From Nemertoderma westbladi (Eukaryota > Animalia > Xenacoelomorpha): DNA of 64,000 nt. The translations under genes were made by a program, and so were the position numbers. The DNA is taken from positions 1 to 64,000 of the forward strand of contig JAUCBJ010006096.1 of NCBI GenBank assembly GCA_032718475.1, written 5' to 3'. The notes under the pieces were generated by a model. It was not told where the DNA came from. It searched no databases and saw only the letters and a list, made by a program, of their open reading frames with translations. Positions 1-48,759 of this stretch are shown piece by piece. Position 1 is the stretch's first letter; every line of letters begins with the position of its first letter.

Positions 1-1662
1 AAGGCTCATCTGGACTTGTGTGTGCGCGATCCCCTTTTAATGTAAAGAACAAAATATTTTAGTGGCAGAACTTACCATCAGACCAGCTCTTTAAAATTGA
101 CATCATTAAATTTAACTATAAATTTCGGGTGTAGACACTATGCCGCCAACCTACAACAACTGTCGACAAATTTGAATATGTAACCTGGGCCCAAGACTAT
201 CGTTTATTGTTTTGGTTAGAATAGACTTACACTGTAACTTGTTCGTTTCTGCTTGCGCTTTTAAGACTTCGATAATTTCCAACAATCAATTTTTATTATC
301 ACAGAAATCTTGCTTAATTTTGTCAAACGTGTTAACATCGGATATAAATCAGCTAGCGCAGCGTGTGACCCAAAGGGAGTCTGAAATATATCGGCGTACC
401 AAAAATGGGCCGTCTTGTATCATTCGATTGATTCTCGCTATGTAATACCCAACAACTATGTTTACGTACGGGATAGTATTAACAGTTAACAGTTTCAGAT
501 GTTGCGTTCTAGATAACAAACAGGTCTATCTATGTCTTACGGTAATTACAACAGATTGCTACAATCATAGTCTGCACACCTTTTATGGGCGTGGTAACCC
601 GACTGAGATACACTCTGGGGCATGACTTGCTGACTTGGGACAATTTTGTTCATGAATAAGGAGTTGATGGGCTCACAAACGTTGTGGCTATAAAATAACA
701 TGTATACTCACTCATGCACACCAATTGATGTGAACCAGAACCGTTAATTTACCAACCAAAGCTTATACCTCGTTTTATTTAAATAACGATATGTTAAGAT
801 TCAAGAGTTATTGATTACGCGACATCTCCATATATTATCACCAATATTTACATAAATTGAATCATCAAGCATTACATATCAACAACAATAATCAGTATTT
901 AGTTATTTACAGTCAGTATGTGCAATTTAGTATTTCATTACTTTGAGTGTAATTTATTGCTTTGTTAATTGACCATGATTCTTCCGCATTTTAAGCCTGG
1001 ATCTTAACGGCAAAATACGTCCTTCTGCTATGAGCAAAAGCAGAACAATGAACTTCCGGCATACAAAATCATGTCATCATCCAATGAAAAGCTAACATGC
1101 GTCATTGTTTACCTTTTGAGCCAGGGCCAGCTGTATTAGGACAAAGAAAAAAGTTTCCATTGGCAGTTCAAAAATAGTGTAGGCCTATAGGGCTACTGGA
1201 ACCGAACACGGGGCATGTGGGTTTTAAGCGAAACTTATTAAGAGACTTACTCAGTTCTATTTGTTTGGAGTAGACTAAGGTTATCGCTAATAAAATAGGC
1301 ATTTTAGTCGCAGAAGCTTTAACAGTTTCCCCATAATTAACATTAATTAGTGTTAATGATGGCTACCGGCTTTGGTTGTCGATTGAAGGCCATTAATTTC
1401 CAGGTGCGAAGTCACCACAAATGGGGGCAGTTCACGTTTAATTTTGAAGTTTGAAAGTGAGAAAATTATAAAATGTAAATATAGCTATTCTTTTATTTCA
1501 TAAAATACAGTAATTACATACTGACATATTTTTCATGTCCGTTAAATCATTGATTATGTCAGTTTTTGATATTCATCGGTTTATTATTTTTTTGTCCAAT
1601 TTTTCTTCGAAGATTTAGGTTATATTTACTGCAGTTTTCTTAGACCATCAGTAGGCCTACCC

Positions 1663-3670
1663 GTATCAGTATCAGTACTGTGCTGCGTTATAGATCAGTA
1701 TAATCAATACCTGTATGAGTACTGTGCTGCGGTATAGATCAGTATAATCAGTCAGTACCTGTATCAGTATTGTGCTGCGGTATAGATCAGTATAATCAGT
1801 ACATGTATCAGTAGGCCTACTGTGCTGCGGTATAGATCAGTATAATCAGTCTGTCAGTACCTGTATCAGTACTGTGCTGCGGTATAGATCAGTATAATCA
1901 GTACCTGTATGAGTACTGTGCTGCGGTATAGATCAGTATAATCAGTACCTGTATCAGTACTGTGCTGCGTTATAGATCAGTATAATCAGCACCTGTATCA
2001 GTACTGTGTATAGATCAGTATAATCAGTACCTGTATCAGTACAGTGCTGCGTTATAGATCAGTATAATCAGTACCTGTATCAGTACTGTGCTGCGGTATA
2101 GATCAGTATAATCAGTACCTGTATTAGTACTGTGCTGCGCCTGCGGTATAGATCAGTATAATCAGTACCTGTATCAGTACTGTGCTGCGGTATAGATCAG
2201 TATAATCAGTACCTGTATCAGTACTGTGCTGCGGTATAGATCAGTATAATCAGTTCCTGTATCAGTACTGTGCTGCGGTATTTATCAGTATAATCAGCAC
2301 CAGTATCAGTACTGTGCTGCGTTATAGATCAGTATAATCAGCACCTGTATCAGTACTGTGTATAGATCAGTATAATCAGTACCTGTATCAGTACAGTGCT
2401 GCGTTATAGATCAGTATAATCAGTACCTGTATCAGTACTGTGCTGCGGTATAGATCAGTATAATCAGTACCTGTATTAGTACTGTGCTGCGGTATAGATC
2501 AGTATAATCAGTTCCTGTATCAGTACTGTGCTGCGGTATTTATCAGTATAATCAGCACCAGTATCAGTACTGTGCTGCGGTATAGATCAGTATAATCAGT
2601 ACCTGTATCAGTACTGTGCTGCGGTATAGATCAGTATAATAAGTACCTGTGTCAGTACTGTGCTGCGTTATAGATCAGTACAATCAGTACTGTGTCAGTA
2701 CTGTGCTGCGGTTGCGGTATAGATCAGTATAATCAGTACCTGTATCAGTACTGTGCTGCGGTATAGATCAGTATAATCAGTACCTGTATCAGAACTGTGC
2801 TGCGGTATAGATCAGTATAATCAGTACCTGAATCAGTACTGTGTTGCGTTTTAGATCAGTATAATCAGTACCTGTATCAGTACTGTGCTGCGGTATAGAT
2901 CAGTAGAATCAGTACCTGTATCAGTACTGTGCTGCGGTATAGATCAGTATAATCCGTACCTGTATCAGTACTGTGCTGCGGTATAGATCAGTATAATCAG
3001 TACCTGTATCAGCACTGTGCTGCGGCATAGATCAGTATAATCCTTACCTGTATCAGTACTGTGCTGCGGTATAGATTAGTATAATCAGTACCTGTATCAG
3101 TACTGTGCTGCGGTATAGATCAGTATAATCAGTACTGTGCTGCGGTATAGATCAGTATAATCAGTACCTGTATCAGTACTGTGCTGCGGTATATATCAGT
3201 ATAATCAGTACCTGTATCAGTACTGTGCTGCGGTATAGATCAGTATAATCAGTACATGTATCAGAACTGTGCTGCGGTATAGATCTGTATAATCAGTACC
3301 TGAATCATTACTGTGCTGCGGTATAGATCAGTATAATCAGTACCTGTATCAGAACTGTGCTGCGGTATAGATCAGTATAATCAGTACCTGTATCAGAACT
3401 GTGCTGCGGTATAGATCAGTATAATCAGTACCTGTATCAGTACTGTGCTGCGGTATAGATCAGTATAATCAGTACCTGTATCAGTACTGCACTGAGGTAT
3501 TTATCAGTATATTCAGTACCTGTATCAGTACTGTGCTGCGGTATAGATCAGTATAATCAGTACCTGTATCAGTACTGGGCTGTGGTATAGATCAGTATAA
3601 TCAGTACTTGTATCATCAGTCAGTCAGTCAGTCTGTAATGCACTGAGATATTTATCAGTATAATCAGTAC
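1663..3670. repeat. 44-bp tandem satellite (~45 units), consensus CAGTACCTGTATCAGTACTGTGCTGCGGTATAGATCAGTATAAT
   Basis: Directly visible tandem units built from ATCAGTA sub-repeats; the array resumes at 5194-5270 after a transposon insertion. Confidence 0.95.
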
Positions 3671-3672
3671 TA

Positions 3673-5193
3673 TAGGGCTCGATCGGAGCTCCGGCTCCGG
3701 CTATTTTGGCACCTCCGGCTCCTGCTCCGGCTCCGGTAAAAATATTGCCGGAGTTAATTTTTTAATAAAAGTACCGGCTGACCGGTATTATAATTCGTGC
3801 ATATACTACTCTGGCGAATTATTTACACTCCAAACATCTGAACATACAGCCAGACAGCATACAGGCATACTATATTCTATATTGTCATACTGTAGTAGCC
3901 TACATCTTAAAAGCATCAAGCATACTACTGCAGTATTCACTTACAGTCACAGACTGACTCTGTGCAGCTAAGTCATACAATAGCAGTCTGACAACTGCAA
4001 CAGCACTACAGGCAAACGGGACGATCTCCTCTGCTGGTACAGGCTGCATGGCAGTGTGAACTTCAAAATGTTTCAGTTTAGCTGCACTGGTACTGGCGGA
4101 CTGGTACAGGTACTGTAAAAAATTGTAGGCCTAAATGATAAGATTGTAGTCATAGTCAGCATTGTACACCCCTGCAAACATGGTACGTTAAATTTACGTT
4201 AATATAGGTGTGGATTAAGTTGGAAAATCACATGAATAAATAACATATTGTTCAACGTTTGATTAACATTCCACTATGCTAGAAAAATTACATGTTTAAA
4301 ATAAACCAATCATAGTCGTTAATTCAGCGTAAAATTCGAACGTTAATTTTCATTGATCTCTAAATGTGTGATGACGTTCGATAGCAACGTTAATTCCGAG
4401 TTTAATTATAAACGTTAATAACGTTCACCTTGTAGTTCTACAATGTGCCAGCCAGACACCATGATACATTCCCATGTGGATGGATATTACAGTAGACACA
4501 CTGCCCAACAACACAATACCTGCCTATGATGGTGTTATAATATATTGCTTCTGATTGGTTACTTACAATATATTTGTCAGTATTATTCTGACTCACACTG
4601 CTATCTCATTGTGTATTATTATATTATAGGATTTGAGTAAAGTTGCATATATTACAGTATAATGTTTACTGTATTCACACTATTATTATATTATTCACAT
4701 TATTAGTAAATGCATCTACTTACCTAAAGAACATATATGCATGCAATACAAGTAGGTACTGAACTGTGATGGATATTATTGCATTTAACAGTTTTATTGT
4801 TTTTTTTATTTCCTTAAATTCGCCCATGTGAAGAATACCAGGATTTCACTTTTCGGTCTGTACCGGTAACTTCTGCACTTATTGCAGTTAGGTACTGTAG
4901 GTAATTGTTAGCTGTCTGTCCGTGTCCATCCATAAATAATAAATTAATTACTTCATTTTAAATTAAAAGTTCGTAAATCTGTAAATTATGAAATTAAATT
5001 GGGCCTACGAGTAGACGAGCGATTGGAGAATGATAACCAGATAACGGTAGCCTACTTTATTTTTTTAAATACGGTAGGCCTAAATAATTTTTTTTGAAAT
5101 TTATGAAAAACTCCGGCTCTGGCTCCGGCTCCGGCTCCGGCCAAATTGTCCAGACTCCGGCTCCGGCCAAATCCCAACTCCGATCGAGCCCTA
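3673..5193. mobile_element. Non-autonomous hAT-like DNA transposon inserted in the 44-bp satellite
   Basis: 16-bp TIRs TAGGGCTCGATCGGAG (3673) / CTCCGATCGAGCCCTA (ends 5193); (CTCCGG)n subterminal repeats at both ends; ATCAGTAC at 3663-3670 and 5194-5201 (probable 8-bp TSD, with an extra TA on the left). Confidence 0.8.
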
Positions 5194-5270
5194 ATCAGTA
5201 CCTGTATCAGTACTGTACTTCGGTATAGATTAGTATAATCAGTACCTGTATCGGAACTGTGCTGCGGTAT
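5194..5270. repeat. Continuation of the 44-bp satellite, abutting ZnF copy 1
   Basis: About 1.7 degenerate units ending GCTGCGGTAT, running directly into the sequence shared with 12991 onward. Confidence 0.85.
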
Positions 5271-5330
5271 TTCATTAGCCTATTTTCGCCATTGATCGAT
5301 CCTATTGAAACCTGATACCCAATTTCCATT

Positions 5331-7083
5331 ATGGAATCACAAAAAGATTCATTGACTAGAAATTGTATAAAAATCGAAGAATCCAACAACTATATACCCT
5401 TACCTATTATCACATCAATATTTACCTGTGGAGATATCGATTCTCACAAAAAACAAAATAAATCAGTTAAACCGGAGCCAATTACTACTGCGGCATTAAA
5501 ATATGCGGAGAACGATGTTAGATCTTACAAACAGACAACGCATTTATTTGTTGATGATGGAACCGTTACGTCAAGGTTTGATGTGGGTCCGCGTTATAAT
5601 AACAATGAGTTGGGAGACAGTAAGGTTCAATTGAATATTTCTGTGGGTGGAAATATTTCGACTAGATCGGAAGAGACCATTGATAGATTATGCTTCGGAC
5701 CTGAAACGACAGAAATATCACAGAATACTTTCGATGCTAGTGAAACAAATTCTTCTTCTATTGTCGCTCCACAAACAATGTTGTTCGGATCTGTATTGGA
5801 GACAGAAAAGTTTGAATTTATGGGGTCTAGTGATGCTGTAACTGATTTTTCTACTGGGATGGATCCAGTTTGTAACGATGATGGTACATCTGCTGTTCGC
5901 AAACTGAATTCTACCAATAACATTGAGACAACTGAGGCGAATACTGAGATATCTGGAAGTATGCCGGATTCTCCAACTGATGTCGAGATATTTCCAGAAT
6001 TTGTACCTGAGTGTACCAATGATATCGAGATATCTTCTGAAAATGTAACAGTTTGTACCAATATTAATGATCCTTCCACTAATGTGTATGGTATACCATT
6101 AGCTCCACCGACGGATGTAACTATATCACCCCTCAGATTTAAATGTTGGTTCGATAAATGCCAGAAGATATACCAAGGTAAAACTCAGTTGTCCAGACAT
6201 ATAAGAACCACACCATAGGACTAAATGCCGCCACTGTGGCGAACAGTTTTCATGTAAAATCAATCTAAGAAAAACTGAAATCAAAAACCATATTTGTGTT
6301 GCTAAAAATGACATCCTGAAGTTTCAATGTTCTCTTTGTGATAAAACTTTTAATTCTTTGTTGCGCCAACGACGTCACGAAATCATAGATCATAAAAAGA
6401 TTGGATATCAGTGTCCAAAATGCGGAAAATCGTACAAAACAATTGATCAAAGGCGATATCATATCAGAGTTACGCATGGTCAGGGGAAATATTTCTGTCC
6501 CCATTGTGATAAAACCTATAAATCAAAGATGGCCTTAGCAGACCATATAAAGGGGTTTCATGAGAATAACAAATACCAGTGTAAATCTTGTAATACGTTT
6601 TATACGGGTAGATATGGTTTGGAGGCCCACATTGATAAAGTACATCATAATCAGCGCTATCATTGTTCAAAGTGTGAAGCACATTTCTCATCCGTTGCAG
6701 CCCTAACTACACATGTAGATAGTGTTCACGGGAATAAACGTTTTGATTGTGCTGAATGTGACAAGTCATACGCCTTCCAAAGTGGTCTTTCCTATCACAT
6801 CCGAAGTGTCCATAAATCCGAGAAGTACATTTGCCCCGATTGTTCCAAGTCGTATGCGTTCCTTCCCGCTTTGGACCACCATATGAAGACTATTCATTCA
6901 TCTACACGATACAAATGCAACGAGTGCGAGGAACTATTTGTTGGGAAGAAGGGCCTTACTGATCATATAAACAAGAAACACAAGTTAAATAGATTTCACT
7001 GTCCTCAGTGTAGGAGATCCTATGTTACTAAAAGTAGTTTAGATAGTCACCTCAGGAACTTTGTTCATCGCAAAACTTTGTAA
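5331..7083 (+). pseudogene. Intronless C2H2 zinc-finger array gene, copy 1 (acidic Ser/Thr-rich N-terminus plus 11 fingers), split by a +1 frameshift at ~6210
   Basis: ORF 5331-6218 ends in CWFDKC...HIRT; the +1 frame from 6211 reads HHRTKCRHC...CSLCDK... without a stop into ORF 6358-7083 with CX2C-X12-HX4H fingers. Removing one A at 6210 restores finger 1. Confidence 0.85.
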
Positions 7084-7103
7084 GTTATTGACTTTTGATG
7101 TAC

Positions 7104-10100
7104 CGGTATGTATATTACACTAATAACTACATTAATACGACGGCATGTCTATTACACTACTAACTACATTAATACGCCAGTATGTCTATTACACTAATAA
7201 CTACATTAATACGACGGCATGTCTATTACACTACTAACTACATTAATACGCCAGTATGTCTATTACACTAATAACTACATTAATACGACGGCATGTCTAT
7301 TACACTACTAACTACATTAATACGCCAGTATGTCTATTACACTAATAACTACATTAATACGACGGTATGTCTATTACACTACTAACTACATTAATACGCC
7401 AGTATGTCTATTACACTACTAACTACATTAATACGCCAGTATGTCTATTACACTACTAACTACATTAATACGCCAGTATGTCTATTACACTACTAACTAC
7501 ATTAATACGACGGTATGTCTATTACACTACTAACTACATTAATACGACGGTATGTCTATTACACTACTAACTACATTAATACGACGGTATGTCTATTACA
7601 CTACTAACTACATTAATACGACGGTATGTCTATTACACTACTAACTACATTAATACGACGGTATGTCTATTACACTACTAACTACATTAATACGACGGTA
7701 TGTCTATTACACTACTAACTACATTAATACGACGGTATGTCTATTACACTACTAACTACATTAATACGACGGTATGTCTATTACACTACTAACTACATTA
7801 ATACGACGGTATGTCTATTACACTACTAACTACATTAATACGACGGTATGTCTATTACACTACTAACTACATTAATACGACGGTATGTCTATTACACTAC
7901 TAACTACATTAATACGACGGTATGTCTATTACACTACTAACTACATTAATACGACGGTATGTCTATTACACTACTAACTACATTAATACGACGGTATGTC
8001 TATTACACTACTAACTACATTAATACGACGGTATGTCTATTACACTACTAACTACATTAATACGACGGTATGTCTATTACACTACTAACTACATTAATAC
8101 GACGGTATGTCTATTACACTACTAACTACATTAATACGACGGTATGTCTATTACACTACTAACTACATTAATACGACGGTATGTCTATTACACTACTAAC
8201 TACATTAATACGACGGTATGTCTATTACACTACTAACTACATTAATACGACGGTATGTCTATTACACTACTAACTACATTAATACGACGGTATGTCTATT
8301 ACACTACTAACTACATTAATACGACGGTATGTCTATTACACTACTAACTACATTAATACGACGGTATGTCTATTACACTACTAACTACATTAATACGACG
8401 GTATGTCTATTACACTACTAACTACATTAATACGACGGTATGTCTATTACACTACTAACTACATTAATACGACGGTATGTCTATTACACTACTAACTACA
8501 TTAATACGACGGTATGTCTATTACACTACTAACTACATTAATACGACGGTATGTCTATTACACTACTAACTACATTAATACGACGGTATGTCTATTACAC
8601 TACTAACTACATTAATACGACGGTATGTCTATTACACTACTAACTACATTAATACGACGGTATGTCTATTACACTACTAACTACATTAATACGACGGTAT
8701 GTCTATTACACTACTAACTACATTAATACGACGGTATGTCTATTACACTACTAACTACATTAATACGACGGTATGTCTATTACACTACTAACTACATTAA
8801 TACGACGGTATGTCTATTACACTACTAACTACATTAATACGACGGTATGTCTATTACACTACTAACTACATTAATACGACGGTATGTCTATTACACTACT
8901 AACTACATTAATACGACGGTATGTCTATTACACTACTAACTACATTAATACGACGGTATGTCTATTACACTACTAACTACATTAATACGACGGTATGTCT
9001 ATTACACTACTAACTACATTAATACGACGGTATGTCTATTACACTACTAACTACATTAATACGACGGTATGTCTATTACACTACTAACTACATTAATACG
9101 ACGGTATGTCTATTACACTACTAACTACATTAATACGACGGTATGTCTATTACACTACTAACTACATTAATACGACGGTATGTCTATTACACTACTAACT
9201 ACATTAATACGACGGTATGTCTATTACACTACTAACTACATTAATACGACGGTATGTCTATTACACTACTAACTACATTAATACGACGGTATGTCTATTA
9301 CACTACTAACTACATTAATACGACGGTATGTCTATTACACTACTAACTACATTAATACGACGGTATGTCTATTACACTACTAACTACATTAATACGACGG
9401 TATGTCTATTACACTACTAACTACATTAATACGACGGTATGTCTATTACACTACTAACTACATTAATACGACGGTATGTCTATTACACTACTAACTACAT
9501 TAATACGACGGTATGTCTATTACACTACTAACTACATTAATACGACGGTATGTCTATTACACTACTAACTACATTAATACGACGGTATGTCTATTACACT
9601 ACTAACTACATTAATACGACGGTATGTCTATTACACTACTAACTACATTAATACGACGGTATGTCTATTACACTACTAACTACATTAATACGACGGTATG
9701 TCTATTACACTACTAACTACATTAATACGACGGTATGTCTATTACACTACTAACTACATTAATACGACGGTATGTCTATTACACTACTAACTACATTAAT
9801 ACGACGGTATGTCTATTACACTACTAACTACATTAATACGACGGTATGTCTATTACACTACTAACTACATTAATACGACGGTATGTCTATTACACTACTA
9901 ACTACATTAATACGACGGTATGTCTATTACACTACTAACTACATTAATACGACGGTATGTCTATTACACTACTAACTACATTAATACGACGGTATGTCTA
10001 TTACACTACTAACTACATTAATACGACGGTATGTCTATTACACTACTAACTACATTAATACGACGGTATGTCTATTACACTACTAACTACATTAATACGA

Positions 10101-10655
10101 CGGTATGTCTATTACACTACTAACTACATTAATACGACGGTATGTCTATTACACTACTAACTACATTAATACGACGGTATGTCTATTACACTACTAACTA
10201 CATTAATACGACGGTATGTCTATTACACTACTAACTACATTAATACGACGGTATGTCTATTACACTACTAACTACATTAATACGACGGTATGTCTATTAC
10301 ACTACTAACTACATTAATACGACGGTATGTCTATTACACTACTAACTACATTAATACGACGGTATGTCTATTACACTACTAACTACATTAATACGACGGT
10401 ATGTCTATTACACTACTAACTACATTAATACGACGGTATGTCTATTACACTACTAACTACATTAATACGACGGTATGTCTATTACACTACTAACTACATT
10501 AATACGACGGTATGTCTATTACACTACTAACTACATTAATACGACGGTATGTCTATTACACTACTAACTACATTAATACGACGGTATGTCTATTACACTA
10601 CTAACTACATTAATACGCCAGTATGTCTATTACACTACTAACTACATTAATACGA
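7104..10655 (+). repeat. 37-bp tandem satellite, ~96 units, consensus GTATGTCTATTACACTACTAACTACATTAATACGACG
   Basis: Essentially identical core units; variant units (GCATGT, TAATAAC, ...CGCCAG) at the 5' edge and in the penultimate unit. Confidence 0.97.
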
Positions 10656-11099
10656 TGGAGTACCGGGTGCTATCGATGGTTGTGTTGTTGTACTGTATGT
10701 AATTTGCCCGGGATTGTAAGTAGTCAACCGGTGTATCAGGAATATTTGCCCCCCCCGCCCCCCGTATAATCTTTCCTCATGCCCATGGGCTGGGTATAAT
10801 CTCCAATAATGTCACCCAAGTCTCATTCCCCTAGAATATTTCGTCCCCCCTGGACATAATATCATAAGTATAATTTTCCTCCCCGCAGCATAAATGTCCT
10901 CCCCATTCAGAGGGAAACTAGCTGAATGAAATAGGCCCTACAGTCGTACTGCTAATTTTTAAGAACCATACTGTGCTGCTTATTTACGCAATTTTAAACG
11001 AATTTGAGTAGGTTTTTAGTGTTTTGACCTTAAGAAATTCAAACCTAATGTTAGGATAGGCCTTCTGGCTTTCATAGAAGATCAAGAAATCGTATCTCC

Positions 11100-12352: not shown

Positions 12353-13053
12353 GCATCTCCATTGATTTATGCCAAAAATTGAATAGATCAAATTTTGCAA
12401 AACTCATGTATTTAAATTTTATGATTATTAAAAATTTTTGTCGTTATTTCGGGTATAACATAGATATATTAAAAATTTGAAAAGCGAAGCGAAACATGCA
12501 GAATAGTGTATACTATAATATAATTTATATTCGCTTGATCGCATTGCATTGCATTAACAACGTAACCAAAATATGTTAAAATGAAGTTTTCTCATGTTGT
12601 TAGTAGGAAGTGCGATATCTCATCATGTGGTAAGGCACCGCGGGACTTAGTATCCGTTCTACTTATACTTTCACTTTTCATGACGCACTTCATTTCTTGT
12701 CCTTCATAACAATAAGTTTCGAATACAATTACGAATAAAATGGCTTAATTGTGGCGTTTTACTATATTAAAATAGTTTTTAAAATTTATTTTGTCGTGAT
12801 CATGTTTTACAATGTACAATCTTGTGTAAAAATACAATTAAAATAAAATAAGCAAATTCGATGATCGCAGAACATTAATTACTGTAGTAATCGACTATAC
12901 TGGTATTCCATGTTAACTTTACATTAAGTTGTTATATTAAGTATTAATATTGTCTGGTTGTGTCAAGGAAGGTGTTTGGCCAAGCGGATTTATTTCATTA
13001 GCCTATTTTCGCCATTGATCGATCCTATTGAAACCTGATACCCAATTTCCATT

Positions 13054-14809
13054 ATGGAATCACAAAAAGATTCATTGACTAGAAATTGTATAAAAATCGA
13101 AGAATCCAACAACTATATACCCTTACCTATTATCACATCAATATTTACCTGTGGAGATATCGATTCTCACAAAAAACAAAATAAATCAGTTAAACCGGAG
13201 CCAATTACTACTGCGGCATTAAAATATGCGGAGAACGATGTTAGATCTTACAAACAGACAACGCATTTATTTGTTGATGATGGAACCGTTACGTCAAGGT
13301 TTGATGTGGGTCCGCGTTATAATAACAATGAGTTGGGAGACAGTAAGGTTCAATTGAATATTTCTGTGGGTGGAAATATTTCGACTAGATCGGAAGAGAC
13401 CATTGATAGATTATGCTTCGGACCTGTAAAGACAGAAATATCACAGAATACTTTCGATGCTAGTGAAACAAATTCTTCTTCTATTGTCGCTCCACAAACA
13501 ATGTTGTTCGGATCTGTATTGGAGACAGAAAAGTTTGAATTTATGGGGTCTAGTGATGCTGTAACTGATTATTCTACTGGGATGGATCCAGTTTGTAACG
13601 ATGATGGTACATCTGCTGTTCGCAAACTGAATTCTACCAATAACATTGAGATAACTAAGGCGAATACTGAGATATCTGGAAGTATGCCGGATTCTCCAAC
13701 TGATGTCGAGATATTTCCAGAATTTGTACCTGAGTGTACCAATGATATCGAGATATCTTCTGAAAATGTAACAGTTTGTACCAATATTAATGATCCTTCC
13801 ACTAATGTGTATGGTATACCATTAGCTCCACCGACGGATGTAACTATATCACCCCTCAGATTTAAATGTTGGTTCGATAAATGCCAGAAGATATACCAAG
13901 GTAAAACTCAGTTGTCCAGACATATAAGAACCACACCATAGGACTAAATGCCGCCACTGTGGCGAACAGTTTTCATGTAAAATCAATCTAAGAAAAACTG
14001 AAATCAAAAACCATATTTGTGTTGCTAAAAATGACATCCTGAAGTTTCAATGTTCTCTTTGTGATAAAACTTTTAATTCTTTGTTGCGCCAACGACGTCA
14101 CGAAATCATAGATCATAAAAAGATTGGATATCAGTGTCCAAAATGCGGAAAATCGTACAAAACAATTGATCAAAGGCGATATCATATCAGAGTTACGCAT
14201 GGTCAGGGGAAATATTTCTGTCCCCATTGTGATAAAACCTATAAATCAAAGATGGCCTTAGCAGACCATATAAAGGGGTTTCATGAGAATAACAAATACC
14301 AGTGTAAATCTTGTAATACGTTTTATACGGGTAGATATGGTTTGGAGGCCCACATTGATAAAGTACATCATAATCAGCGCTATCATTGTTCAAAGTGTGA
14401 AGCACACTTTCTCATCCGTCCTGCAGCCCTAACTACACATGTAGATAGTGTTCACGGGAATAAACGTTTTGATTGTGCTGAATGTGACAAGTCATACGCC
14501 TTCCAAAGTGGTCTTTCCTATCACATCCGAAGTGTCCATAAATCCGAGAAGTACATTTGCCCCGATTGTTCCAAGTCGTATGCGTTCCTTCCCGCTTTGG
14601 ACCACCATATGAAGACTATTCATTCATCTACACGATACAAATGCAACGAGTGCGAGGAACTATTTGTTGGGAAGAAGGGCCTTACTGATCATATAAACAA
14701 GAAACACAAGTTAAATAGATTTCACTGTCCTCAGTGTAGGAGATCCTATGTTACTAAAAGTAGTTTAGATAGTCACCTCAGGAACTTTGTTCATCGCAAA
14801 ACTTTGTAA
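13054..14809 (+). pseudogene. Intronless C2H2 zinc-finger array gene, copy 2, with the same +1 frameshift (~13933)
   Basis: Near-identical to copy 1 from 12991; 5 amino-acid differences in the N-terminal ORF; net +3 indels at ~14405-14422 (FSSVAAL becomes FLIRPAAL). Confidence 0.85.
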
Positions 14810-14829
14810 GTTATTGACTTTTGATGTAC

Positions 14830-16652
14830 CGGCATGTCTATTACACTACTAACTACATTAATACGACGGTATGTCTATTACACTACTAACTACATTAATA
14901 CGACGGTATGCTCCTATTACACTAATAACTACATTAATACGACGGTATGTCTATTACACTACTAACTACATTAATACGACGGTATGTCTATTACACTACT
15001 AACTACATTAATACGACGGTATGTCTATTACACTACTAACTACATTAATACGCCAGTATGTCTATTACACTACTAACTACATTAATACGACGGTATGTTT
15101 ATTACACTACTAACTACATTAATACGACGGTATGTCTATTACACTACTAACTACATTAATACGACGGTATGTCTATTACACTACTAACTACATTAATACG
15201 ACGGTATGTCTATTACACTACTAACTACATTAATACGACGGTATGTCTATTACACTACTAACTACATTAATACGACGGTATGTCTATTACACTACTAACT
15301 ACATTAATACGACGGTATGTCTATTACACTACTAACTACATTAATACGACGGTATGTCTATTACACTACTAACTACATTAATACGACGGTATGTCTATTA
15401 CACTACTAACTACATTAATACGACGGTATGTCTATTACACTACTAACTACATTAATACGACGGTATGTCTATTACACTACTAACTACATTAATACGACGG
15501 TATGTCTATTACACTACTAACTACATTAATACGACGGTATGTCTATTACACTACTAACTACATTAATACGACGGTATGTTTATTACACTACTAACTACAT
15601 TAATACGACGGTATGTCTATTACACTACTAACTACATTAATACGACGGTATGTCTATTACACTACTAACTACATTAATACGACGGTATGTCTATTACACT
15701 ACTAACTACATTAATACGACGGTATGTCTATTACACTACTAACTACATTAATACGACGGTATGTCTATTACACTACTAACTACATTAATACGACGGTATG
15801 TCTATTACACTACTAACTACATTAATACGACGGTATGTCTATTACACTACTAACTACATTAATACGACGGTATGTCTATTACACTACTAACTACATTAAT
15901 ACGACGGTATGTCTATTACACTACTAACTACATTAATACGACGGTATGTCTATTACACTACTAACTACATTAATACGACGGTATGTCTATTACACTACTA
16001 ACTACATTAATACGACGGTATGTCTATTACACTACTAACTACATTAATACGACGGTATGTCTATTACACTACTAACTACATTAATACGACGGTATGTCTA
16101 TTACACTACTAACTACATTAATACGACGGTATGTCTATTACACTACTAACTACATTAATACGACGGTATGTCTATTACACTACTAACTACATTAATACGA
16201 CGGTATGTCTATTACACTACTAACTACATTAATACGACGGTATGTCTATTACACTACTAACTACATTAATACGACGGTATGTCTATTACACTACTAACTA
16301 CATTAATACGACGGTATGTCTATTACACTACTAACTACATTAATACGACGGTATGTCTATTACACTACTAACTACATTAATACGACGGTATGTCTATTAC
16401 ACTACTAACTACATTAATACGACGGTATGTCTATTACACTACTAACTACATTAATACGACGGTATGTCTATTACACTACTAACTACATTAATACGACGGT
16501 ATGTCTATTACACTACTAACTACATTAATACGACGGTATGTCTATTACACTACTAACTACATTAATACGACGGTATGTCTATTACACTACTAACTACATT
16601 AATACGACGGTATGTCTATTACACTACTAACTACATTAATACGACGGTATGT
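14830..16652 (+). repeat. 37-bp tandem satellite, second array, ~49 units
   Basis: Same unit as 7104-10655 and same position ~20 bp after the ZnF stop; followed by TACGCCAG at 16653-16660. Confidence 0.97.
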
Positions 16653-16677
16653 TACGCCAGTTGATAATTAGCCAGAC

Positions 16678-17100
16678 TAGAGCCAGAGCGCTCTATATAA
16701 TTACCCAGAGCCAGAGCGCTCTATATAATTACCTAGAGCCAGAGCGCTCTATGTAATTACCTAGAGCCAGAGCGCTCTATATAATTACCTAGAGCTAGAG
16801 CGCTCTATGTAATTACCTAGAGCCAGAGCGCTCTATGTAATTACCTAGAGCCAGAGCGCTCTATATAATTACCTAGAGCCAGAGCGCTCTATATAATTAC
16901 CTAGAAGAGCCAGAGCGCTCTATATAATTACCCAGAGCCAGAGCGCTCTATATAATTACCTAGAGCCAGAGCGCTCTATATAATTACCTAGAAGAGCCAG
17001 AGCGCTCTATATAATTACCTAGAGCCAGAGCGCTCTATATAATTACCTAGAGCCAGAGCGCTCTATATAATTATCTAGAGCCAGAGCGCTCTATATAATT
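16678..17100. repeat. 28-bp minisatellite (~15 units) AGAGCCAGAGCGCTCTATATAATTACCT
   Basis: Visible tandem units containing the palindrome AGAGCGCTCT. Confidence 0.93.
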
Positions 17101-18738
17101 CTCGATTTGATTGGTTGGACTGATTTGGAGGGAAGTTCAAATGCATGTGAGGTAATGGTTTGGGGTTGTACCGGTACTCTAATTAATTATAAATATGTTA
17201 CCGGTCTGCCGGTGTAAAAAAGGGCGAGATCATAATTTTGAAAAATCAGTCCAACCAATGATATCATACATTAGTATTGGTTTTGTTTTATATGTTTTAT
17301 GGTCTATAAGGTCTATTATATTTAAGGTCTATTCTGGTTATAGGTCTATGTTTTATTATGTTTTATAAACATGTATATTTTGTTATGAATATGTATATTT
17401 TGTATGTTATGTTATATTACTATATGTTAAATTCAATGTCTTTATATAGTTAGAAAAAAAGAAAAAGGTTGGTTCTGAAATTATTGTGTAATATGTTTAG
17501 GTATGGTTTGCAGATTGTATCTTATAGACACTCTTAATTAATTAACATAAATGTGATATATATATTTATATTATATTTTATTATATATAGGCCCATAGCA
17601 AAAGTAAAAATAATTAATTGTGAAACAATCTCCGTATCAAATTTCATGCAATCTCATTAAGATTTGTAGAAAGTTTTGGGAGAGGGGGTGGGGGCGGTCG
17701 TGTCATTAAATTACGACACTATATTCCGGGATATGGTGTACAGTACAGTAAGATCCTTAATCAACATTATCCAAAAATGCGTAAGTTTTTTTTACGTAAC
17801 TTTGCCCACCACGCCGCCGGGGGGGGGGGGGGGGGGGGGGGGTAGCGCTACTTCAATAATTTTGCAAAAAAAAAATTTATTTCATCTAGAGCAGAATTTT
17901 ATAAAGATTCCAAATTTGAAAACCGTTTAGCAAGATCTGTCCTGACCTCTCGAGATATGGCTGTCTGTCCGTTTTACTGTCCGTTTGTCCGTCAGTATAT
18001 CTGTCTGTCAATAAAGAACATACTATCTGATTAAAAAATTCCCTGTATTGGTTTTGGTGGTCAGTGACTTGATTTCTGATGTCATTAATCAAAGTTGGCC
18101 TTGCCGGTTCTGTCTGTATGCCTGTCAGTTTGTCGGTCAAAATATAACCGACAGTCTGACAGCCAAACAGACAATTTGAAAATCATCAAAATGATAAAAT
18201 TGACACTCGAAATTCATTCTGCGACCAGTAAACTCCTATAGCTAAACTTTTAGCCCAATGCTGCGCCTTTTTCTTATATTTGACAGACTGATAAGTCGTA
18301 TAATCAGAAAGACCGACAGACAGACAAACTAGATTTCATTAAAATTGAAAAATGACCTCAGAAATGAATCCAGCGACCAGGAAAACCCCATAGCAAAATT
18401 CTTAGCAGGCTCATTCAATGCAAATGTCAACCGCAGTGCCAATTTTGAAAAAAAGTGAATTATTGCTTCTCATATAAATTTTCAGAACCAATATACAGTA
18501 TGATGCGGTTTACGAATTTAATACAAAAAACCGCATCAAAATTGGGTAATCTTCTGAAATCTGGTCTTATTCGCCCTTACCTCTCAAACTGCAAAAATAC
18601 AGTTAACTGAGTGCATAATACAGTATGACAACCGCGTTTTATGAGTATTTTTAGGTAGAAGGCAACGTAATAGAGTACTTTTAGAAGCAAAACAATAATA
18701 TTTTCTAATGAAATCATTTGCTGTCAAATAAAACACGT

Positions 18739-22176: not shown

Positions 22177-24350
22177 ACTACTACTACTAGGATCGGCATG
22201 CTGCATTGCAGCTGCATTTTTAAGAATGCTGTGCCGGCTTATCGACAAAATTGCACCGCCACAACTCCCTATCACCCATGACATTTGCTAGATCATCCGC
22301 ATCTTCAAGGCCAGTGTCCTTTAAGATGCGTCTCAAGAAAGTCATGGGCTGTCCACCATGCTTATTCACTCCATGAGGCTGTCAAAGTACAAGATTATGC
22401 ACTGGCTGGTCCTCACGGCGAAAGCAATGTCCTGCAAAGCGGAGGCGATTTTGTTCTAGTGTCAAGCTTGGGGGAACCAATGAGACACCTCCAATGTTAT
22501 ATAGTGTCTGGTTGGAGATGTGTGCATTGTACTTGATACACTGAACCCGGCGTAGCATTCTTGTGAATGTGCCATCCAGAGATTTGGTGTCCTCAGCAGT
22601 TAGAGCCCAGCATGGACTCCCGTAGAGGAGTACTGGAACTACTACTGCTCTAAATAATCGGACCTTAAGTTTCCGATTAATTCTCGGTGACTTCCAAATC
22701 CTGGAAAGCCTAGTCAAGGCTGCTCATGCCTTTCCCTTACGTATTCGAAGGTCCTCGCCTGACTTCCGGATCCATGATCCCAGGTAACAGAAGTCGTCCA
22801 CATGCTCAAGCATACCATCCTTTGAGCTTATGCTCATCCGATCAGAGACTTGCTGAGGACTTTCAAAGTTAACTGTCAAAATTTTGGTCTTTCTGGAGTT
22901 AATAAAAAGACCAACACTAGAAGCAGCATGTTCTAATGAGCTGAGGAGCCGTTGGGCTCCCTCTAATGATTCTGAAAGTACTCCTAAGTCATCAGCAAAG
23001 TCTAGATCAGTTAGGTACTTGGCAGGATTTCCTCGACTTCTGGAGCCAGTAGGTGGAGTTATCATCACCCCATCATCATTATGATGATCTAAGGACATGC
23101 GTAGAACATAGTCAACCACAATAATGAACAAGAATGGTGCAAGTGTGTCTCCTTGGAGGACGCCCCATAACACTTCAAATGGTTCTGTGTCACCGTCAAT
23201 AGTAGACACAAATGTTGTCGAACCATCGTATACTGATCTGATTGCTGCAATAATTTCATTAGGAATCCCATATAATGAAAGTATGCTGAACATACGTGAG
23301 CGAGAGACTGAATCAAAGGCCTTGAAGAAGTCAACAAAGATAACAGCCAGATGCCTGTCTTTCTTTTTTGATAATTCTTCAATTATCCTTCTAAGTGCCA
23401 AAATGGGCTCCATGGTCCCACGACCTTTACGGAACCCATTCTGATTTCCACGGAGCAGTCTCTCAATGGGATCCCTGATGCGATTTAATAGAATCCTATT
23501 GTATAGCGTTGCTGCAATCGAGATCAATGAGATTCCCCGAAAAGAACCATAGAGTGTTAGGTTGCCCTTCTTGGGAACTGGCACCAACTTATTTGTTTTC
23601 ATTTCTTGTGGGACTCTTGTTGTTCGGTACATGTCTACTATGATGGGATAGATGAGCTTTAAACACTCAGGTATTTTAAAGACCTCAGGGGGAACACCAT
23701 CTACTCCACTGGCACGATTGGTCTTAATGCACTTTGCAGGAGATATCGCCAATGGGAATATCTGGGAGTACAGACTCAGACACTTTTACTTCTATAAAGT
23801 TATCAGGCAATACCCTGTCATTATTGAGGAGCTTTTCAAAGTGGGCTTTCCAACCATTGAGGCGATCGGCTGGTGATTCAGCCTTAACCTTGGTGGTTGG
23901 TTGGCTTTTCCACCCAGTAAGCACATTGGTCGATTTCCATGCCTGGGATGATTGCCTGCTGTCGTCAGCACCATTGATGGGATGGCATCAACCTGTTGGT
24001 TTATTAGCTCCTGTAGATTAACAGAGTACTGCCTGTTCAGGGACCTAGATGCAGCCTTAACTGCATTCTTGGCCGCTGTAGTCTGTTTGAGTCGGGACTC
24101 TTTCTGCGCGTTATGAAGATCATTTCGGCACTTCTGAATTTTGTTGTCAGTCCAGGGGGCCCTTTTCCAGTTTCGAGGGTATACAGGAACTGTTTCTGCA
24201 GCTGCTAACTTAACTGCTTCTGTAAAGGCAGTATAGCCCTCACAGTGATCTGCCGCCTCAGAGGCAAGAGCCTCATACCTGTTGCTCAGCTGTAGTGTGA
24301 AGCTGGATCTCACACAGTCTGGTTTAATCTGCAGTGTAGATAGAGTGTGC
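22177..24350 (-). mobile_element. 5'-truncated, decayed non-LTR retrotransposon (RTE-like LINE), reverse transcriptase region
   Basis: ORF 22724-23752 has NQNGFRKGR, FVDFFKAFDSV, GVLQGDTLAPFLF, DFADDL, FCYLGS; continues past an in-frame TGA into 22382-22717 (RLRFAGHCFR); upstream frameshifted pieces; (TAG)n 3' tail at ~22177-22190. Confidence 0.92.
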
Positions 24351-24467
24351 AGTAGCTTCGTTGTTTTTGGGTATTGGATATGAATCAGCGATATAAGGGA
24401 AGGAATAATTGATAATAACAACATTGTACAACACCGCACACTGACAAAACGTAGCTGGCCATACACC

Positions 24468-25718
24468 GGATGTAGGACAATTCGGTCCCGGACAATTCGG
24501 CACGGACAATTCGGCACGGACATTTCTGTCCCAAAACAGCAAATAAATGGGACCGAATTGTCCGGGACAGAATTGTCCGGGACCGAAATGTCCGGGAACG
24601 AATTGTAAACTTTTTATCGTTTAAGGCCTGTTTACACGTGGCAACTTTTAGAGCAACTTTCTTGGCAACTACTGTAGCAACTTTTTTTGGAGCAACTTGG
24701 CTAGTTTGACTGTAAAATAGTGGGTAATTTTATCTACTAGCTAGTTTTTGATAATTTAATTTGATTATCCCGCTTTAATTCGCCAACGCAAATTCCTTCA
24801 AGTTGCCGTAAAAGTTGGGCAACTTTTACTGCAACTTTTTTACGTGTTTACACGGAGCAACTTGATCGGCAACCTGGGTTGCTCTACAAGTTGCCGAGAA
24901 AGTTGCTCTAAAAGTTGCCATACGGGGATAGTAATACAGTACATAGCTATACATAGATACACATAGCTAGTATTTTTTTTGAAATTATAAAAACATTGAT
25001 ATTTCAGAATTAGGCCTAAACTGTTACATAATATATCAATTACCAAAAATATTGATGATATTATAACAATTTAAGCTGAACATCGTGTGGCGGTACAGTT
25101 ATTATAATCTAAATTCAGCAACTACTGTAGTGTCTCTGAATGAGATCCTGCTATTGTATAGGATAATAATAATTTAGGCTTGTTAACCAATACAAACGCA
25201 ACACAAACGTAATTAATACATACGCAACATATTAAAAAATTTGTTTTATGCAAATACAATATACTAATAAATAAAATATATAAAATATAAAATAAATACA
25301 ATATGCTATATCTAGCTACAGTAGTAAATAATTCACAAGCTCCATAAAAACACCATATTATAGCTAACTGTACCATAACTAAAAATGTAAACAAAAAAAT
25401 AAACTTTTTTAATTTCAACAAAATACTAGCTAGTAAAAAAACACTAGCCTCACCATAAAAAATATCCATTAAGGTTCTAGAACATTCACCATTATATAGT
25501 ACCAATTAAATTTTGTCCCGGTCAATTTGCTCCCATTAATTAGGTTTGTTTTGAGTTTGTTTTTGGAATTCGGTCCCAAAACAAAAATATAATGGGACCG
25601 AATTGTCCGGGACCGAATTGTCTGGGACCGAATGTCTGGGACCGAATTGTCTGGGACCGAATTGTCTGGGACCGAATTGACTGGACCGAATTGTCCGGGA
25701 CCTAATTGTCCTGCATCC
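24468..25718. mobile_element. Non-autonomous Mutator/MULE-like foldback element
   Basis: TIRs GGATGTAGGACAATTCGGTCCCGG / CCGGGACCTAATTGTCCTGCATCC built from 15-bp GGACAATTCGGTCCC repeats; perfect 9-bp TSD CCATACACC (24459-24467, 25719-25727). Confidence 0.85.
24625..24924. mobile_element. Palindromic PIF/Harbinger-like MITE nested in the MULE-like element
   Basis: Starts GGCCTGTTTACACG after TAA; arms TGGCAACTTTTAGAGCAACTTTC / GAAAGTTGCTCTAAAAGTTGCCA; right terminus damaged. Confidence 0.55.
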
Positions 25719-34216: not shown

Positions 34217-37200
34217 ATGTCTGACACTCAGCAAAACCTGTCAGACAGTCTAATCGATACAACCATCTGTGACACAGATAGGAGTGTGGAGCGATTAAGA
34301 AAGGAGTTCAGCTCACCTCCTACTGAAAGAAAAGTCATCCCTCCAGTAGTGGTATCGGACCCTAAGCTAATCCAACACCGTAGGTCTATCATCGGCACTC
34401 GGGCCCAAGTCAAACGGAACCAGGAAGCAGCTGTCCCACAGCAGCAACAGCCTAGTCAAGAAACTTGTTCCCAGCGATCCGATAGCTCCAGTAGTTCGGA
34501 TACTGTCGAGCTGACCCCCGAACGCGGATTGCGGATGGCGGCTAAAGCCTACTCGGACCCCCTTCTCACCCTCCCTGCCGCAGTGCTAACTACTATATTG
34601 ATTGCGGTGGAGGAACATCAAGCCAATTGGGCGAGAAATAAGCGAGCGACCCAAGATAATTATGCGGGATACGCCAGGGAAGAATTGATGTCTATTGTCG
34701 AGTCACAATGGAACTTTCCCGAACCCGGACTCCCGTTAGATCTGTCCGAGGCTACTTGGGAAGATATACACAGGATGGGAGTGGCTAAAGATACGATGGA
34801 TCCAGCTGTTTGGAAGAGGTCGGCAGCAGGATATGTGCAGGGATTCTTCGGCTCCTTAGAGCGATTAGAAGAACAACTGTTTCGACAACCCCAAGGACCT
34901 CAAGAGCAAGAAGAACTGCTATACCAAGTACGCGAAAGAACCCTACGCATTCGACTAATCCTATCAGCCTTTGAGGAAACTTCCAAAAGAAGACAGGACA
35001 CGTCGCTGCAAGTTGCTGTCAAAACTTGGTTCCAGCGGGTGGGTCGCAAAGTACAAGAAACGGACCAGTGGAAATCCCAGCTGTCTGAGAGACTAACCTA
35101 TGAAGAACCAACCGATGCCACCCTTCCTCAAGTGGAAGGCGAAGAGACCGCAGAGAGACCACGAACGAGAGACGCCATAGACATTTATCTGTCCGACTAT
35201 CAGCGATTCCTAGGAGACGAAGAGTTGAGGAGACGGCTTTCTGGACTTTCCCCTAATAGTGAAGGAACCCAACGTGTGTTAGACTCAATCGATGCTGAAA
35301 TGTTAGCTGCTAACCAAGCAGAATTTGATGAAAAACTCTGCCTCGCTAGAGTCCAGGAAGAACAAGTAAAGAAAAGACGGATAGAGGAACAAAAGGCGGC
35401 GGCTATGGCAGAAGCAGAAGTAGAAAGAAAGGCAGTGACGGCAGAAGCAGAAGCAGAAAGAAAAGCAGCAAAGGCAGTGGCAGAAGCAGAACGGAGAGCC
35501 TCTGAGCAGAGTACCCAACTGGAGTTGGAAAATCTGCAAGAGACGCAAGACAACATAAATAAACAGTTAACTGCTAGTCAAATGCAGATGATGAGACGAT
35601 CTACTCCCAAACGCCAGGGATACACATCATCGGAGGAAAGCGAAACCACCGATCCTGAAGGCGGAGGAAATAGATCTCGTCTAAGCAGGCGTAGAAAAAC
35701 ATCTCACCGTCACAAATTGCCTGATTTGCCCCCAGCTATTAGAAGACAGCTAGCTAGCACAGACTTAGGTAGTACGGAACCCGCATACCAAACTATTCAG
35801 GTCAAAAGACTCCCTACAATAGTTGATGAGCCTGAAATAATTAGGCCTGTCGTTCCCAAAGTCACTTCTGTGTTAGAGACCCCTGTACTTCCAGAGCTTA
35901 ACTCTAAATTCCCTTTACATAGTACTACACTGCCTGTACCCGGTAGAACAGTCCAAGAGAATATCCCTGTCCTGGAATCTGAGAGAGAAATCAAAGATTT
36001 GTCTCCTGTCGTCCCGCGTAAGCCCGCTACAATGTTGGCGACTCCCGCTTCGGCGGTCGAGTGGGTAGAGGAGGGACGGCGGGGGATGAACCTCCTGCTC
36101 GGACAGATGCAGGAGACTGTCCACCAACTTAAGGGAACAGTAAGGGAAGGTAGGGCAGAGTTGCAAGAAGTGCAGCAAAGTATCGCACTGGAACGCGACA
36201 AGTTAGTCAATATACAAAAAGGGATACCAATACCCCCTGTAAAATTGTGTCAACCTGTTAGGTCTGAAGTATTGCATGCGCAAGGTGTGGAGCCTACACG
36301 CATCTATACTGCTAGTGAAGTAGAAACTCCTATAGCAAACCCTATTAAGGGTGATTATAGACCTGTTGTTAATGATGTTCCTTATAGACCTGACAATGAT
36401 CCGAGAAATTTATATACCGATAATTCGATATTAAATAACACGATGGCCCAAGAAAGCTTTACGCGTCAGATGGCCAGAACAGAAGCCCGCCAAGCGGTCA
36501 AAGTGGGAGAGATCGTCAAATTCAATGGAGATGAGATGAAATGGTTACCTTTCAACGAATATTACAAAGATAGCATACAAAACTCTGTACTATCTAACGG
36601 AGAGAAACTTAGGTTCCTCATCAAGTGCTTGGAAGGACCTCCCAGGTTAATGGCGTTAAAGTTTATTGGACATCCAGAAGGATTAAGACAAGTATGGGAT
36701 ACATTAAACATCAGGTACGGTAACAAGGATAACATAGCTAAGTATTTGTATGCAAAATTAGTAGCCCCCCGACGCTTCCTTAGTAGCGGGATTATAGAGT
36801 TTTCCGATGAAATTCAGGAAATCTGTAGACAATTGGACTGGTTAGGTAAGTCTCATGAATATCAAAGTTCCATGGTTATTGGAGCAGTAGTCTCTACTTT
36901 ACCAAAGGGTGGAGTATGTACACGCTGGGACAAGAAAGTGTTGTACATGAATGAACAACAACAACGAAGTCCTACCATGGCTGATCTCATGTCCTTCTTA
37001 GATAGTGAAGTAAAACTACAACTCATCAACCAGTCCAGAGAGAAAACATCGGAAAATAAGGTAAGTGAGAAACCCGCTTCTAGGAGAAGAGTAACCCCGG
37101 TGTGTTACACTGACGACGGCGAAAGCCAAGCTTCTCAAGAAGAGGACAGCGGGAAAGACACTGAGAGATCTTACTACGTTGACAAAACCTCAAAAGATGT

Positions 37201-41458: not shown

Positions 41459-41660
41459 CATAACATAACATAATACTCAGTTCTATAATGCTATAATGTA
41501 TATATTGGTTTAGACAATAATCACATACTTACATAAATCAGTCCTTCCTATTCTAACGCTAGGCCTATACTGCTATACATAAGTACAGTAGGAACCGGTA
41601 CTGTCACATCACCTCAATCATCCCATCACCAGAGCCATGGCCTATTCCAGAGCAGTCACA

Positions 41661-47495: not shown

Positions 47496-47497
47496 TA

Positions 47498-48757: not shown

Positions 48758-48759
48758 GT

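What the first reader, a model, noticed from the sequence alone, without database searches (positions are those of the whole stretch)
7104..10655. The 37-bp satellite unit reads as a concatemerised miniature spliceosomal intron
Seen: on the ZnF gene's sense strand almost every unit carries GTATGT and TACTAAC. Edge units end in CAG, e.g. 7365-7402 GTATGTCTATTACACTACTAACTACATTAATACGCCAG (38 nt, last G shared with the next GT); CAG variants end at 7180, 7254, 7328, 7402, 7439, 7476, 10621, 15056 and 16660. The homogenised core has no AG at all, and both arrays have a CAG variant at or next to their 3' end. Known: GUAUGU is a strong 5' splice site, UACUAAC is the optimal U2/SF1 branch point, and ACUAAC followed by UAAU is the bipartite STAR-family (QKI/GLD-1/HOW) element. 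Inference: the satellite arose by amplification of a mini-intron (slippage, or rolling-circle copying of an intron circle). It may be excised as one long AG-free 3'-UTR intron, or a read-through RNA could act as a ~100-site sponge or scaffold for SF1/STAR/U1/U2. The match was noticed post hoc and could be chance.
Basis: partly seen in the sequence, partly recalled or inferred. Interest (0 to 1): 0.78.

Follow-up and report, generated by a model that had tools for sequence, protein, structure and literature searches.

The report
Splice-donor minisatellite behind zinc-finger gene
A 37-base repeat, copied 96 and 49 times just after two copies of an animal zinc-finger gene, is likely the start of one ordinary intron (its splice-donor signal) duplicated head to tail, a known oddity, rather than a chain of whole miniature introns.

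Summary
The motifs are real: 136 of 145 units carry GTATGT and TACTAAC, a pair that is rare in shuffles (5e-5 to 1.4e-3). The unit is not an intron, though. It is 37 nt while GT..AG needs 38, donor and branch point are 20 nt apart, only 5 of 145 units have all three signals, and the CAG sits on a decaying CpG. Array 1 is exactly 96.0 units, starting two bases before a GT that lies 22 nt after the stop codon. One public run that behaves like RNA holds a contig leaving the gene exactly at that first GT and resuming at 17281, beyond the arrays; three DNA-like runs pass 17280 unbroken. That fits a minisatellite grown from a real 3'-UTR splice donor, like human F7 intron 7 or lancelet 'mirages'. 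The weak point: the reference has GG, not AG, at the landing site, so an array-free allele remains possible. TACTAAC is most likely a passenger. New member of a known kind; interest 0.2.

The parts
5331..7083 (+). C2H2 zinc-finger gene, copy 1; one extra base near 6211 splits it into two frames in this assembly
   Evidence: ORFs 5331-6218 and 6205-7083; Pfam zf-C2H2 E 3.3e-33; 4 of 4 public runs lack the extra base, which gives 583 codons
7084..7105 (+). 22-nt untranslated stretch between stop codon and first GT; likely the end of an exon
   Evidence: last aligned base of the X3 junction contig is 7105
7104..10655 (+). 37-bp minisatellite, array 1, exactly 96.0 units; unit = 2 bases before the GT plus 35 bases from the GT on
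7106..7111 (+). First donor of the array; best U1-type match among the unit types (7 of 9 against 5-6 of 9); likely the authentic donor
7106..7328 (+). Three copies of a 74-bp dimer at the 5' edge; 7106-7180 reads GT..TACTAAC..CAG over 75 nt with donor-branch distance 57; untested cryptic intron
13054..14809 (+). Zinc-finger gene, copy 2; duplicated segment starts at 12991 (5268 in copy 1), about 99% identical, same break plus three extra bases near 14408-14421
14830..16652 (+). 37-bp minisatellite, array 2, 49 units; first unit has GC instead of GT
16647..16660 (+). Truncated last unit ending in CAG, no TACTAAC
16677..17100 (.). Unrelated 28-bp minisatellite, about 15 units, inside the skipped stretch
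17281..17610 (+). U-rich stretch where the X3 junction resumes; likely downstream 3'-UTR exon; reference bases before it are GG, nearest AG ends at 17274

Best explanation
The array is a local minisatellite whose first unit likely spans a real exon-intron border (a splice donor 22 bases after the zinc-finger stop codon), so every copy repeats that donor and the whole array is likely removed inside one 3'-UTR intron from the first copy. Shown: the register, the counts, the edge variants and one contig that leaves at the first donor. Inferred: that this contig is spliced RNA; that a 37-bp piece (2 exon bases, 35 intron bases) was duplicated by slippage and then expanded and homogenised by ordinary minisatellite turnover; that downstream donors stay silent as in human F7; that TACTAAC is a passenger in the intron's first 35 bases; and that CAG arises by mutation at the unit's last CpG.
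For: Array 1 is exactly 96.0 units beginning at 7104, two bases before the GT; human F7 has the same anatomy, 4 exon + 33 intron bases (PMC1557585 Introduction). In run X3 one contig aligns through 7105 and continues with the 29 letters of 17281-17309; X3's contigs break at exactly 17280 while X1, X2 and X4 have contigs running through it, so 1 of 4 runs (1 of 3 samples) shows the junction. X3 is guessed as DNA by the tool but behaves like RNA (my inference): median depth of 14 high-copy repeat bins over gene depth is 5.3 against 204-442 in the others, and its longest record is 11.6 kb against 31-137 kb. The donor at 7106 matches the donor consensus at 7 of 9 positions, internal ones at 5-6. 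No AATAAA or ATTAAA lies between the stop and either array; such signals follow at 17705-18030. A junction 22 nt after the stop is inside the usual 50-55-nt decay limit (established rule; listing says the rule is imperfect). Variants sit at the array edges and at unit positions 35-37 (table 5c, 37), as in mirages (PMC3087553 section 16). A real donor removes most of the improbability: TACTAAC alone is in 0.9% (mono) to 13% (dinucleotide) of shuffles.
Against: The skipped stretch ends in GG at 17279-17280, not AG; the nearest AG ends 6 nt earlier; pyrimidines are 6 of 12 and no YTRAY lies within 60 nt. X3's own contig over 17179-17309 has that GG and depth 36, so unspliced sequence is about as deep as the junction path (estimated 9 to 38, and the depths do not add up). 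GT-GG introns exist but are rare, and SNPs, indels and template switching mimic them (PMC4176328 passages). The evidence is one contig of one run not on record as RNA; strand is unknown. Only two exon bases are in the unit. In copy 2, the copy next to 17281, the first donor is GC in this assembly. The donor overlaps the palindrome TACCGGTA, found 15 times in the window against 0.7 expected, which makes G-GTA common without splicing.
Confidence: 0.58

Rival explanations
1. Ordinary minisatellite in a 3' flank: the splice-like motifs are coincidence, and the X3 junction is an array-free genomic allele (a deletion through one shared G).
For: Non-AG landing site and poor acceptor context. TACCGGTA is about 20-fold enriched and supplies part of the donor. 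The exact motif pair also occurs at 29391 in non-array DNA; loose donor plus branch motifs occur in 2.1% of 111,840 window 37-mers. The scan reads very many repeat units, so rare matches are expected somewhere (inference). No special RNA fold, z -0.95 to 0.32.
Against: The left breakpoint falls exactly on the predicted cleavage point (one-base ambiguity), and only the RNA-like run shows it. The skipped stretch is a patchwork of two arrays, a multi-copy piece and low-depth DNA, so it does not look like one inserted element.
Confidence: 0.3
2. One reading: the unit is a whole 38-nt intron multiplied by slippage or by rolling-circle copying of an intron circle; the CAG units are the ancestral form.
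For: The three signals in order are rare in shuffles, 7 of 600,000 exact; branch-to-AG distance of 17 nt is reasonable; some animals have such introns (Dicyema japonicum mean 38.2 bp, PMC6736024 passages); the host's intron-length mode is unknown.
Against: Unit is 37 nt; an intron circle would give AG|GT joints and a lariat circle a 21-nt unit, neither is seen. Donor-to-branch distance is 20 nt against a 46-nt minimum in human (PMC11291888 abstract). Both outer ends of array 1 are AG-less, 5 of 145 units have all three signals, and the runs show AG-making and non-AG changes alike at the same CpG (table 5c). The related gene has no unit after its stop in the 30 letters shown.
Confidence: 0.05
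3. The array is kept as a functional RNA scaffold or decoy for SF1, STAR proteins, U1 or U2, or tunes the gene's 3' end processing.
For: 140 of 145 units carry TACTAAC with a TAAT five bases on; no poly(A) signal precedes the array, so any pre-mRNA would contain it; the RNA is predicted to be weakly folded.
Against: The half-site follows from composition (43% given TACTAAC); copy number differs twofold between the two copies; units that lose TACTAAC or GT are tolerated at the edge, including the first ones; homogeneity is explained by turnover alone (PMC3087553).
Confidence: 0.05

Closest known systems
Human F7 intron 7 37-bp VNTR, with 6-16, CBS intron 13, lamin B2 and PDGF intron 4 minisatellites (PMC1557585; abstract and Introduction read)
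   Same: 37-bp unit whose first copy spans a donor, so the donor is repeated in every unit; polymorphic length; first donor used.
   Different: F7 has 5-9 copies in a coding-region intron with a proven canonical acceptor. Here 49-96 copies, an intron in the 3' UTR, 2 rather than 4 exon bases, a branch-point-like heptamer in the unit, and splicing inferred from one contig with a non-AG landing site.
Lancelet 'mirage' minisatellites: Adh3, globins BflGb6/BflGb9, troponin C, PGBD5 (PMC3087553 section 16 and passages; PMC3902484 one passage)
   Same: Tandem copies of an exon-intron border, homogeneous centre with divergent edges, unstable length, reported not to disturb splicing, proposed as raw material for new introns.
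   Different: Globin mirages are a few copies of about 150-160 bp at coding exons; this one is longer and behind a stop codon.
Polyubiquitin UBC tandem dual-specific AGGT splice sites (PMC10809524; abstract read)
   Same: Splice signals repeated once per monomer of a tandem array.
   Different: UBC monomers are delimited by AG|GT sites used as both ends; here the joints are CG|GT or CA|GT, and an AG|GT variant was seen only at low depth in one run (table 5c).
Very short spliceosomal introns, e.g. Dicyema japonicum mean 38.2 bp (PMC6736024; passages)
   Same: Length that a borrowed-G GT..AG reading of the unit would have.
   Different: Shows only that such introns exist in an animal; nothing ties this host to that architecture, and the unit fails the GT..AG register.

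Membership tests
Splice-border minisatellite (F7 / mirage type) | First monomer spans a real exon-intron border | tested here: inconclusive
   Register starts 2 nt before the GT and the X3 contig leaves at 7105, but the run is RNA only by inference and the landing site is GG
Splice-border minisatellite (F7 / mirage type) | Splice signal reiterated in each unit | tested here: met
   140 of 145 units begin GTATGT
Splice-border minisatellite (F7 / mirage type) | Homogeneous core, divergent edges, variable length | tested here: met
   84 identical consecutive units, variants mostly at edges, 96 versus 49 units
Splice-border minisatellite (F7 / mirage type) | Most upstream donor is the one used | tested here: inconclusive
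   One junction contig at the first donor; later donors lay outside the stretch laid
U2-type intron (each unit a mini-intron) | GT..AG within one repeat period | tested here: not met
   Period 37, GT..AG reading needs 38; CAG in 8 of 145 units
U2-type intron (each unit a mini-intron) | Donor-to-branch spacing that fits the spliceosome | tested here: inconclusive
   20 nt, below the 46-nt human minimum; the host's limit is unknown and 38-nt introns exist in Dicyema
U2-type intron (each unit a mini-intron) | Pyrimidine tract before the AG | tested here: not met
   6 of 12 pyrimidines
Intron-circle or lariat-circle concatemer | Joints AG|GT, or donor joined to branch A (21-nt unit) | tested here: not met
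   Joints are CG|GT or CA|GT, unit 37 nt
STAR/QKI or SF1 sponge RNA | Many bipartite ACUAAY..UAAY sites (consensus recalled) | tested here: met
   Present in 140 of 145 units; 2.6% of shuffles, 43% given TACTAAC
STAR/QKI or SF1 sponge RNA | Stable array-bearing RNA bound by the protein | not testable with these tools
   Only contigs were available; no strand, level or binding data
Genome-wide satellite DNA | High copy number away from this gene | tested here: not met
   Rough only, depth is not copy number: unit-bin over gene depth 15-91 in three DNA-like runs against 1,530-4,720 for a dispersed repeat; no other copy in the window

The most novel reading that the evidence does not exclude
Mutation among the repeats has built new working introns: the 74-bp edge dimer (7106-7180; one GT donor, one TACTAAC 57 nt later, one CAG, with the inner donor and first branch site disabled) is spliced as a 75-nt intron and regenerates a donor from the exon's last G, so the array is a caught-in-the-act case of intron birth from a mirage, and its excised RNA carries 50-90 ideal branch sites that could act as an SF1/U2 decoy.
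Probability: 0.06. Interest if true: 0.62.

Novelty: new member of a known kind. Interest (0 to 1): 0.2.

Why it matters
On its own it is one more splice-border minisatellite, with two small twists: it lies in a 3' UTR, and the one junction seen lands on a non-AG site. It matters mainly as a data point for why tandem repeats seed at exon borders; unchecked notes of this scan list 16 such arrays in the same genome, which would make the organism a good system for that question and for the mirage model of intron gain. A satellite made of whole spliceosomal introns would have been more surprising; I found none described for animals in five searches of the held library, but this array does not have that anatomy.

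Tried and rejected
No whole genome is held, so paralogue search, genome-wide orientation of the repeat and the host's intron length and branch consensus were not testable; the window holds no recognisable host exons besides the ZnF gene (48 ORFs scanned, only retroelement families hit). No RNA holder listed; this is no evidence either way. Homologue searches for the N-terminal half found nothing; the finger half gave only generic C2H2 proteins, at most 35% identical among 150 listed, so the host is known only as an animal by its gene and element content. The unit has no exact match in metagenome contigs and no look-alike note. Two loose-end motifs are not in the window. RNA folding is no better than shuffles. 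A coding role is excluded: stops recur on both strands. My first reading, pure chance plus an array-free allele, was lowered after the same-genome notes prompted the test of X3's library type. A perfect GTAAGT overlaps the stop codon at 7080 but has a poor exon side (6 of 9) and the X3 contig reads through it. GTATGT and TACTAAC are not enriched outside the arrays (40 vs 35.6, 14 vs 12.0 expected), weak because the window is mostly mobile DNA. Supplements of the papers were not read.

Full report
Observation. The window is AT-rich, repeat-laden animal-type DNA with retroelements. A C2H2 zinc-finger gene occurs twice (5331-7083, 13054-14809) in a segment about 99% identical from 5268/12991 into the array, with unrelated flanks. 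Each copy is followed by the 37-bp array: 96.0 and 49.2 periods. Of 145 units, 140 start GTATGT, 140 carry TACTAAC, 136 both, 8 end in CAG and 5 have all three.

Chance. For one unit the exact pair is rare: 20 of 400,000 mononucleotide shuffles and 216 of 150,000 dinucleotide shuffles on one strand; looser animal consensus gives 0.2-1% on one strand and up to 7% on either. With YAG in order: 7, 183 and 880 of 600,000 for exact, mid and loose motifs. The other features are cheap: no AG in 15% of shuffles, STAR half-site in 43% once TACTAAC is there. In non-array DNA 9 of 111,840 37-mers hold the exact pair, and the only such close pair is at 29391.

The unit is not an intron. In the GT register it ends ACG or CCA; the AG borrows the next unit's G, so a GT..AG reading is 38 nt on a 37-nt period. 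An intron circle would leave AG|GT joints and a lariat circle a 21-nt unit (inference from splicing chemistry); neither is present. The branch A is 20 nt from the donor, against a 46-nt minimum in human introns (PMC11291888, abstract); Dicyema averages 38-bp introns (PMC6736024, passages), so length alone does not exclude it for an unknown host. There is no pyrimidine tract. Array 1 begins CGG and ends TACGA, both the AG-less type, so the CAG form looks derived. It involves a G-to-A change at the unit's last CpG, and the public runs show further variants there, some making AG and some not (table 5c).

Public runs. Four runs (three samples, three studies) hold the gene, none on record as RNA. 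I laid all four on 5268-7143 and on 17073-18600, not on the arrays. All four lack the extra base near 6211, so the gene is intact (583 codons) outside this assembly. All four hold a related gene that leaves the alignment at 7073 and has no unit in the 30 letters shown. Unit depth over gene depth is 15-91 in three runs against 1,530-4,720 for a dispersed repeat; depth is a rough guide only, but it points to a local minisatellite. One contig in X3 aligns through 7105 and continues with 17281-17309; X3's contigs break at exactly 17280, where X1, X2 and X4 run through. X3 differs from the others as an RNA library would: repeat-to-gene depth median 5.3 against 204-442 over 14 bins, longest record 11.6 kb, and long near-identical pieces showing the same organism (331 nt with no difference). 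This is my inference; the tool guesses DNA, and the run was picked for holding the gene.

Reading. The junction leaves exactly at the first unit's donor, 22 nt after the stop, the best donor match of the unit types (7 of 9), and skips the 37-bp array, a 28-bp array and a small multi-copy piece (2,449 nt from copy 2, 10,175 from copy 1; which copy is not known). That is the anatomy of the human F7 intron 7 VNTR, a 37-bp unit of 4 exon and 33 intron bases in which only the first donor is used (PMC1557585, abstract and Introduction), and of lancelet mirages (PMC3087553 section 16; PMC3902484 passage). A real donor explains the least likely motif; TACTAAC (1-13% by chance) rides along; CAG is one mutation away. 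Sixteen unchecked notes among 17 distinct ones shown for this genome describe splice-border satellites in other genes. They led me to this reading and to the test of X3 but I did not check them and they are not support.

Against. The reference ends the skipped stretch in GG; the nearest AG is 6 nt upstream in an imperfect 6-bp duplication; there is no tract or branch motif nearby. The join can also be placed one base left (GG..TG). X3 holds the unspliced GG sequence at depth 36, the junction path is estimated at 38 from the bin residual (assuming one unlisted contig) or 9 by subtraction, and the downstream contig has 45, so the depths do not add up. An expressed allele with AG or without the 6 nt, a rare GT-GG intron (BANP is one; PMC4176328 passages), a template switch or a genomic deletion could each give this contig. 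The donor also overlaps TACCGGTA, about 20-fold enriched in the window. Hence 0.58 for the donor model, 0.30 for an ordinary minisatellite with an array-free allele, about 0.05 each for the mini-intron origin and the sponge.

At the edge of array 1 three 74-bp dimers alternate a GT unit with TAATAAC and a GC unit with TACTAAC and CAG, so 7106-7180 reads as a 75-nt intron with a 57-nt donor-branch distance. All differences between the two halves of the dimer (unit positions 2, 18, 35, 37; plus 7 in the very first unit) but that last one fall in the putative signals. I noticed this after the fact, copy 2 carries the same variants in other combinations, and no use was shown. It is the basis of the novel case (0.06).

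Verdict. Observation confirmed; interpretation partly supported (long 3'-UTR intron from the first GT likely; whole mini-intron, intron circle and sponge unsupported). New member of a known kind, interest 0.2. Recalled without a call: the STAR/QKI consensus, the 9-letter donor consensus used for scoring (it agrees with the one given), CpG decay, and yeast-type status of GTATGT/TACTAAC. For the 50-55-nt rule and the intron-derived CapA satellite I saw only search listings; for UBC only the abstract.

Noticed in passing
window 6211 and 13934 region: Both gene copies carry the same one-base frameshift that none of the four public runs shows; copy 2 has three further extra bases near 14408-14421. 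Either assembly error or a private dead allele.
   Followed up: partly
window 5268-10655 and 12991-16652: The two gene-plus-array copies are about 99% identical but share no flanking DNA; in X2 and X4 the gene is about twice as deep as flank-specific pieces. Could be two haplotypes placed in tandem by the assembler, or a true duplication.
   Followed up: partly
window 7073 (loose ends): A related zinc-finger gene, roughly 92% alike over short pieces, is in all four runs and has a different C-terminus and 3' end; it is not in the window.
   Followed up: partly
window 5465: X3 alone has a contig that leaves the coding sequence just before a weak GT (3 of 9) and continues with 111 letters not found in the window; possible alternative splice or other copy.
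   Followed up: partly
window 7100-7106 and 10660-10666: The 7-mer GTACCGG flanks array 1 on both sides, and GT 7106 to AG 10660 would also skip the whole array; the motif is about tenfold enriched in the window.
   Followed up: partly
whole window: TA-flanked palindromes TACCGGTA (15), TAGGCCTA (16) and TACGCGTA (11) each occur against 0.7 expected, TACAGTA 48 against 11.5; they resemble DNA-transposon excision footprints (recalled, untested).
   Followed up: no
window 17110-17259: 17-bp inverted repeat (17110-17126, 17243-17259) around a piece that is multi-copy in three runs and shows a strand-switch joint; small MITE-like element.
   Followed up: no
window 46935-49838: Four adjacent ORFs on +, one with an adenovirus-type protease match (PF00770, E 8.5e-06); likely part of a Polinton/Maverick-like element.
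   Followed up: partly
window 34217-46433, 53624-55630, 61262-63796: BEL/Pao-type retroelement interrupted by a copia-type element with identical 202-bp repeats at 41459 and 46706; further Pao-type pieces; an RT-bearing LINE-like piece at 22382-24613.
   Followed up: partly
window 1669-3615 and 5192-5270: 44-bp minisatellite (44 units, 88% matches) upstream of copy 1, with two stray units ending right at the start of the duplicated segment, next to an acceptor-like TTTCATTAG.
   Followed up: no
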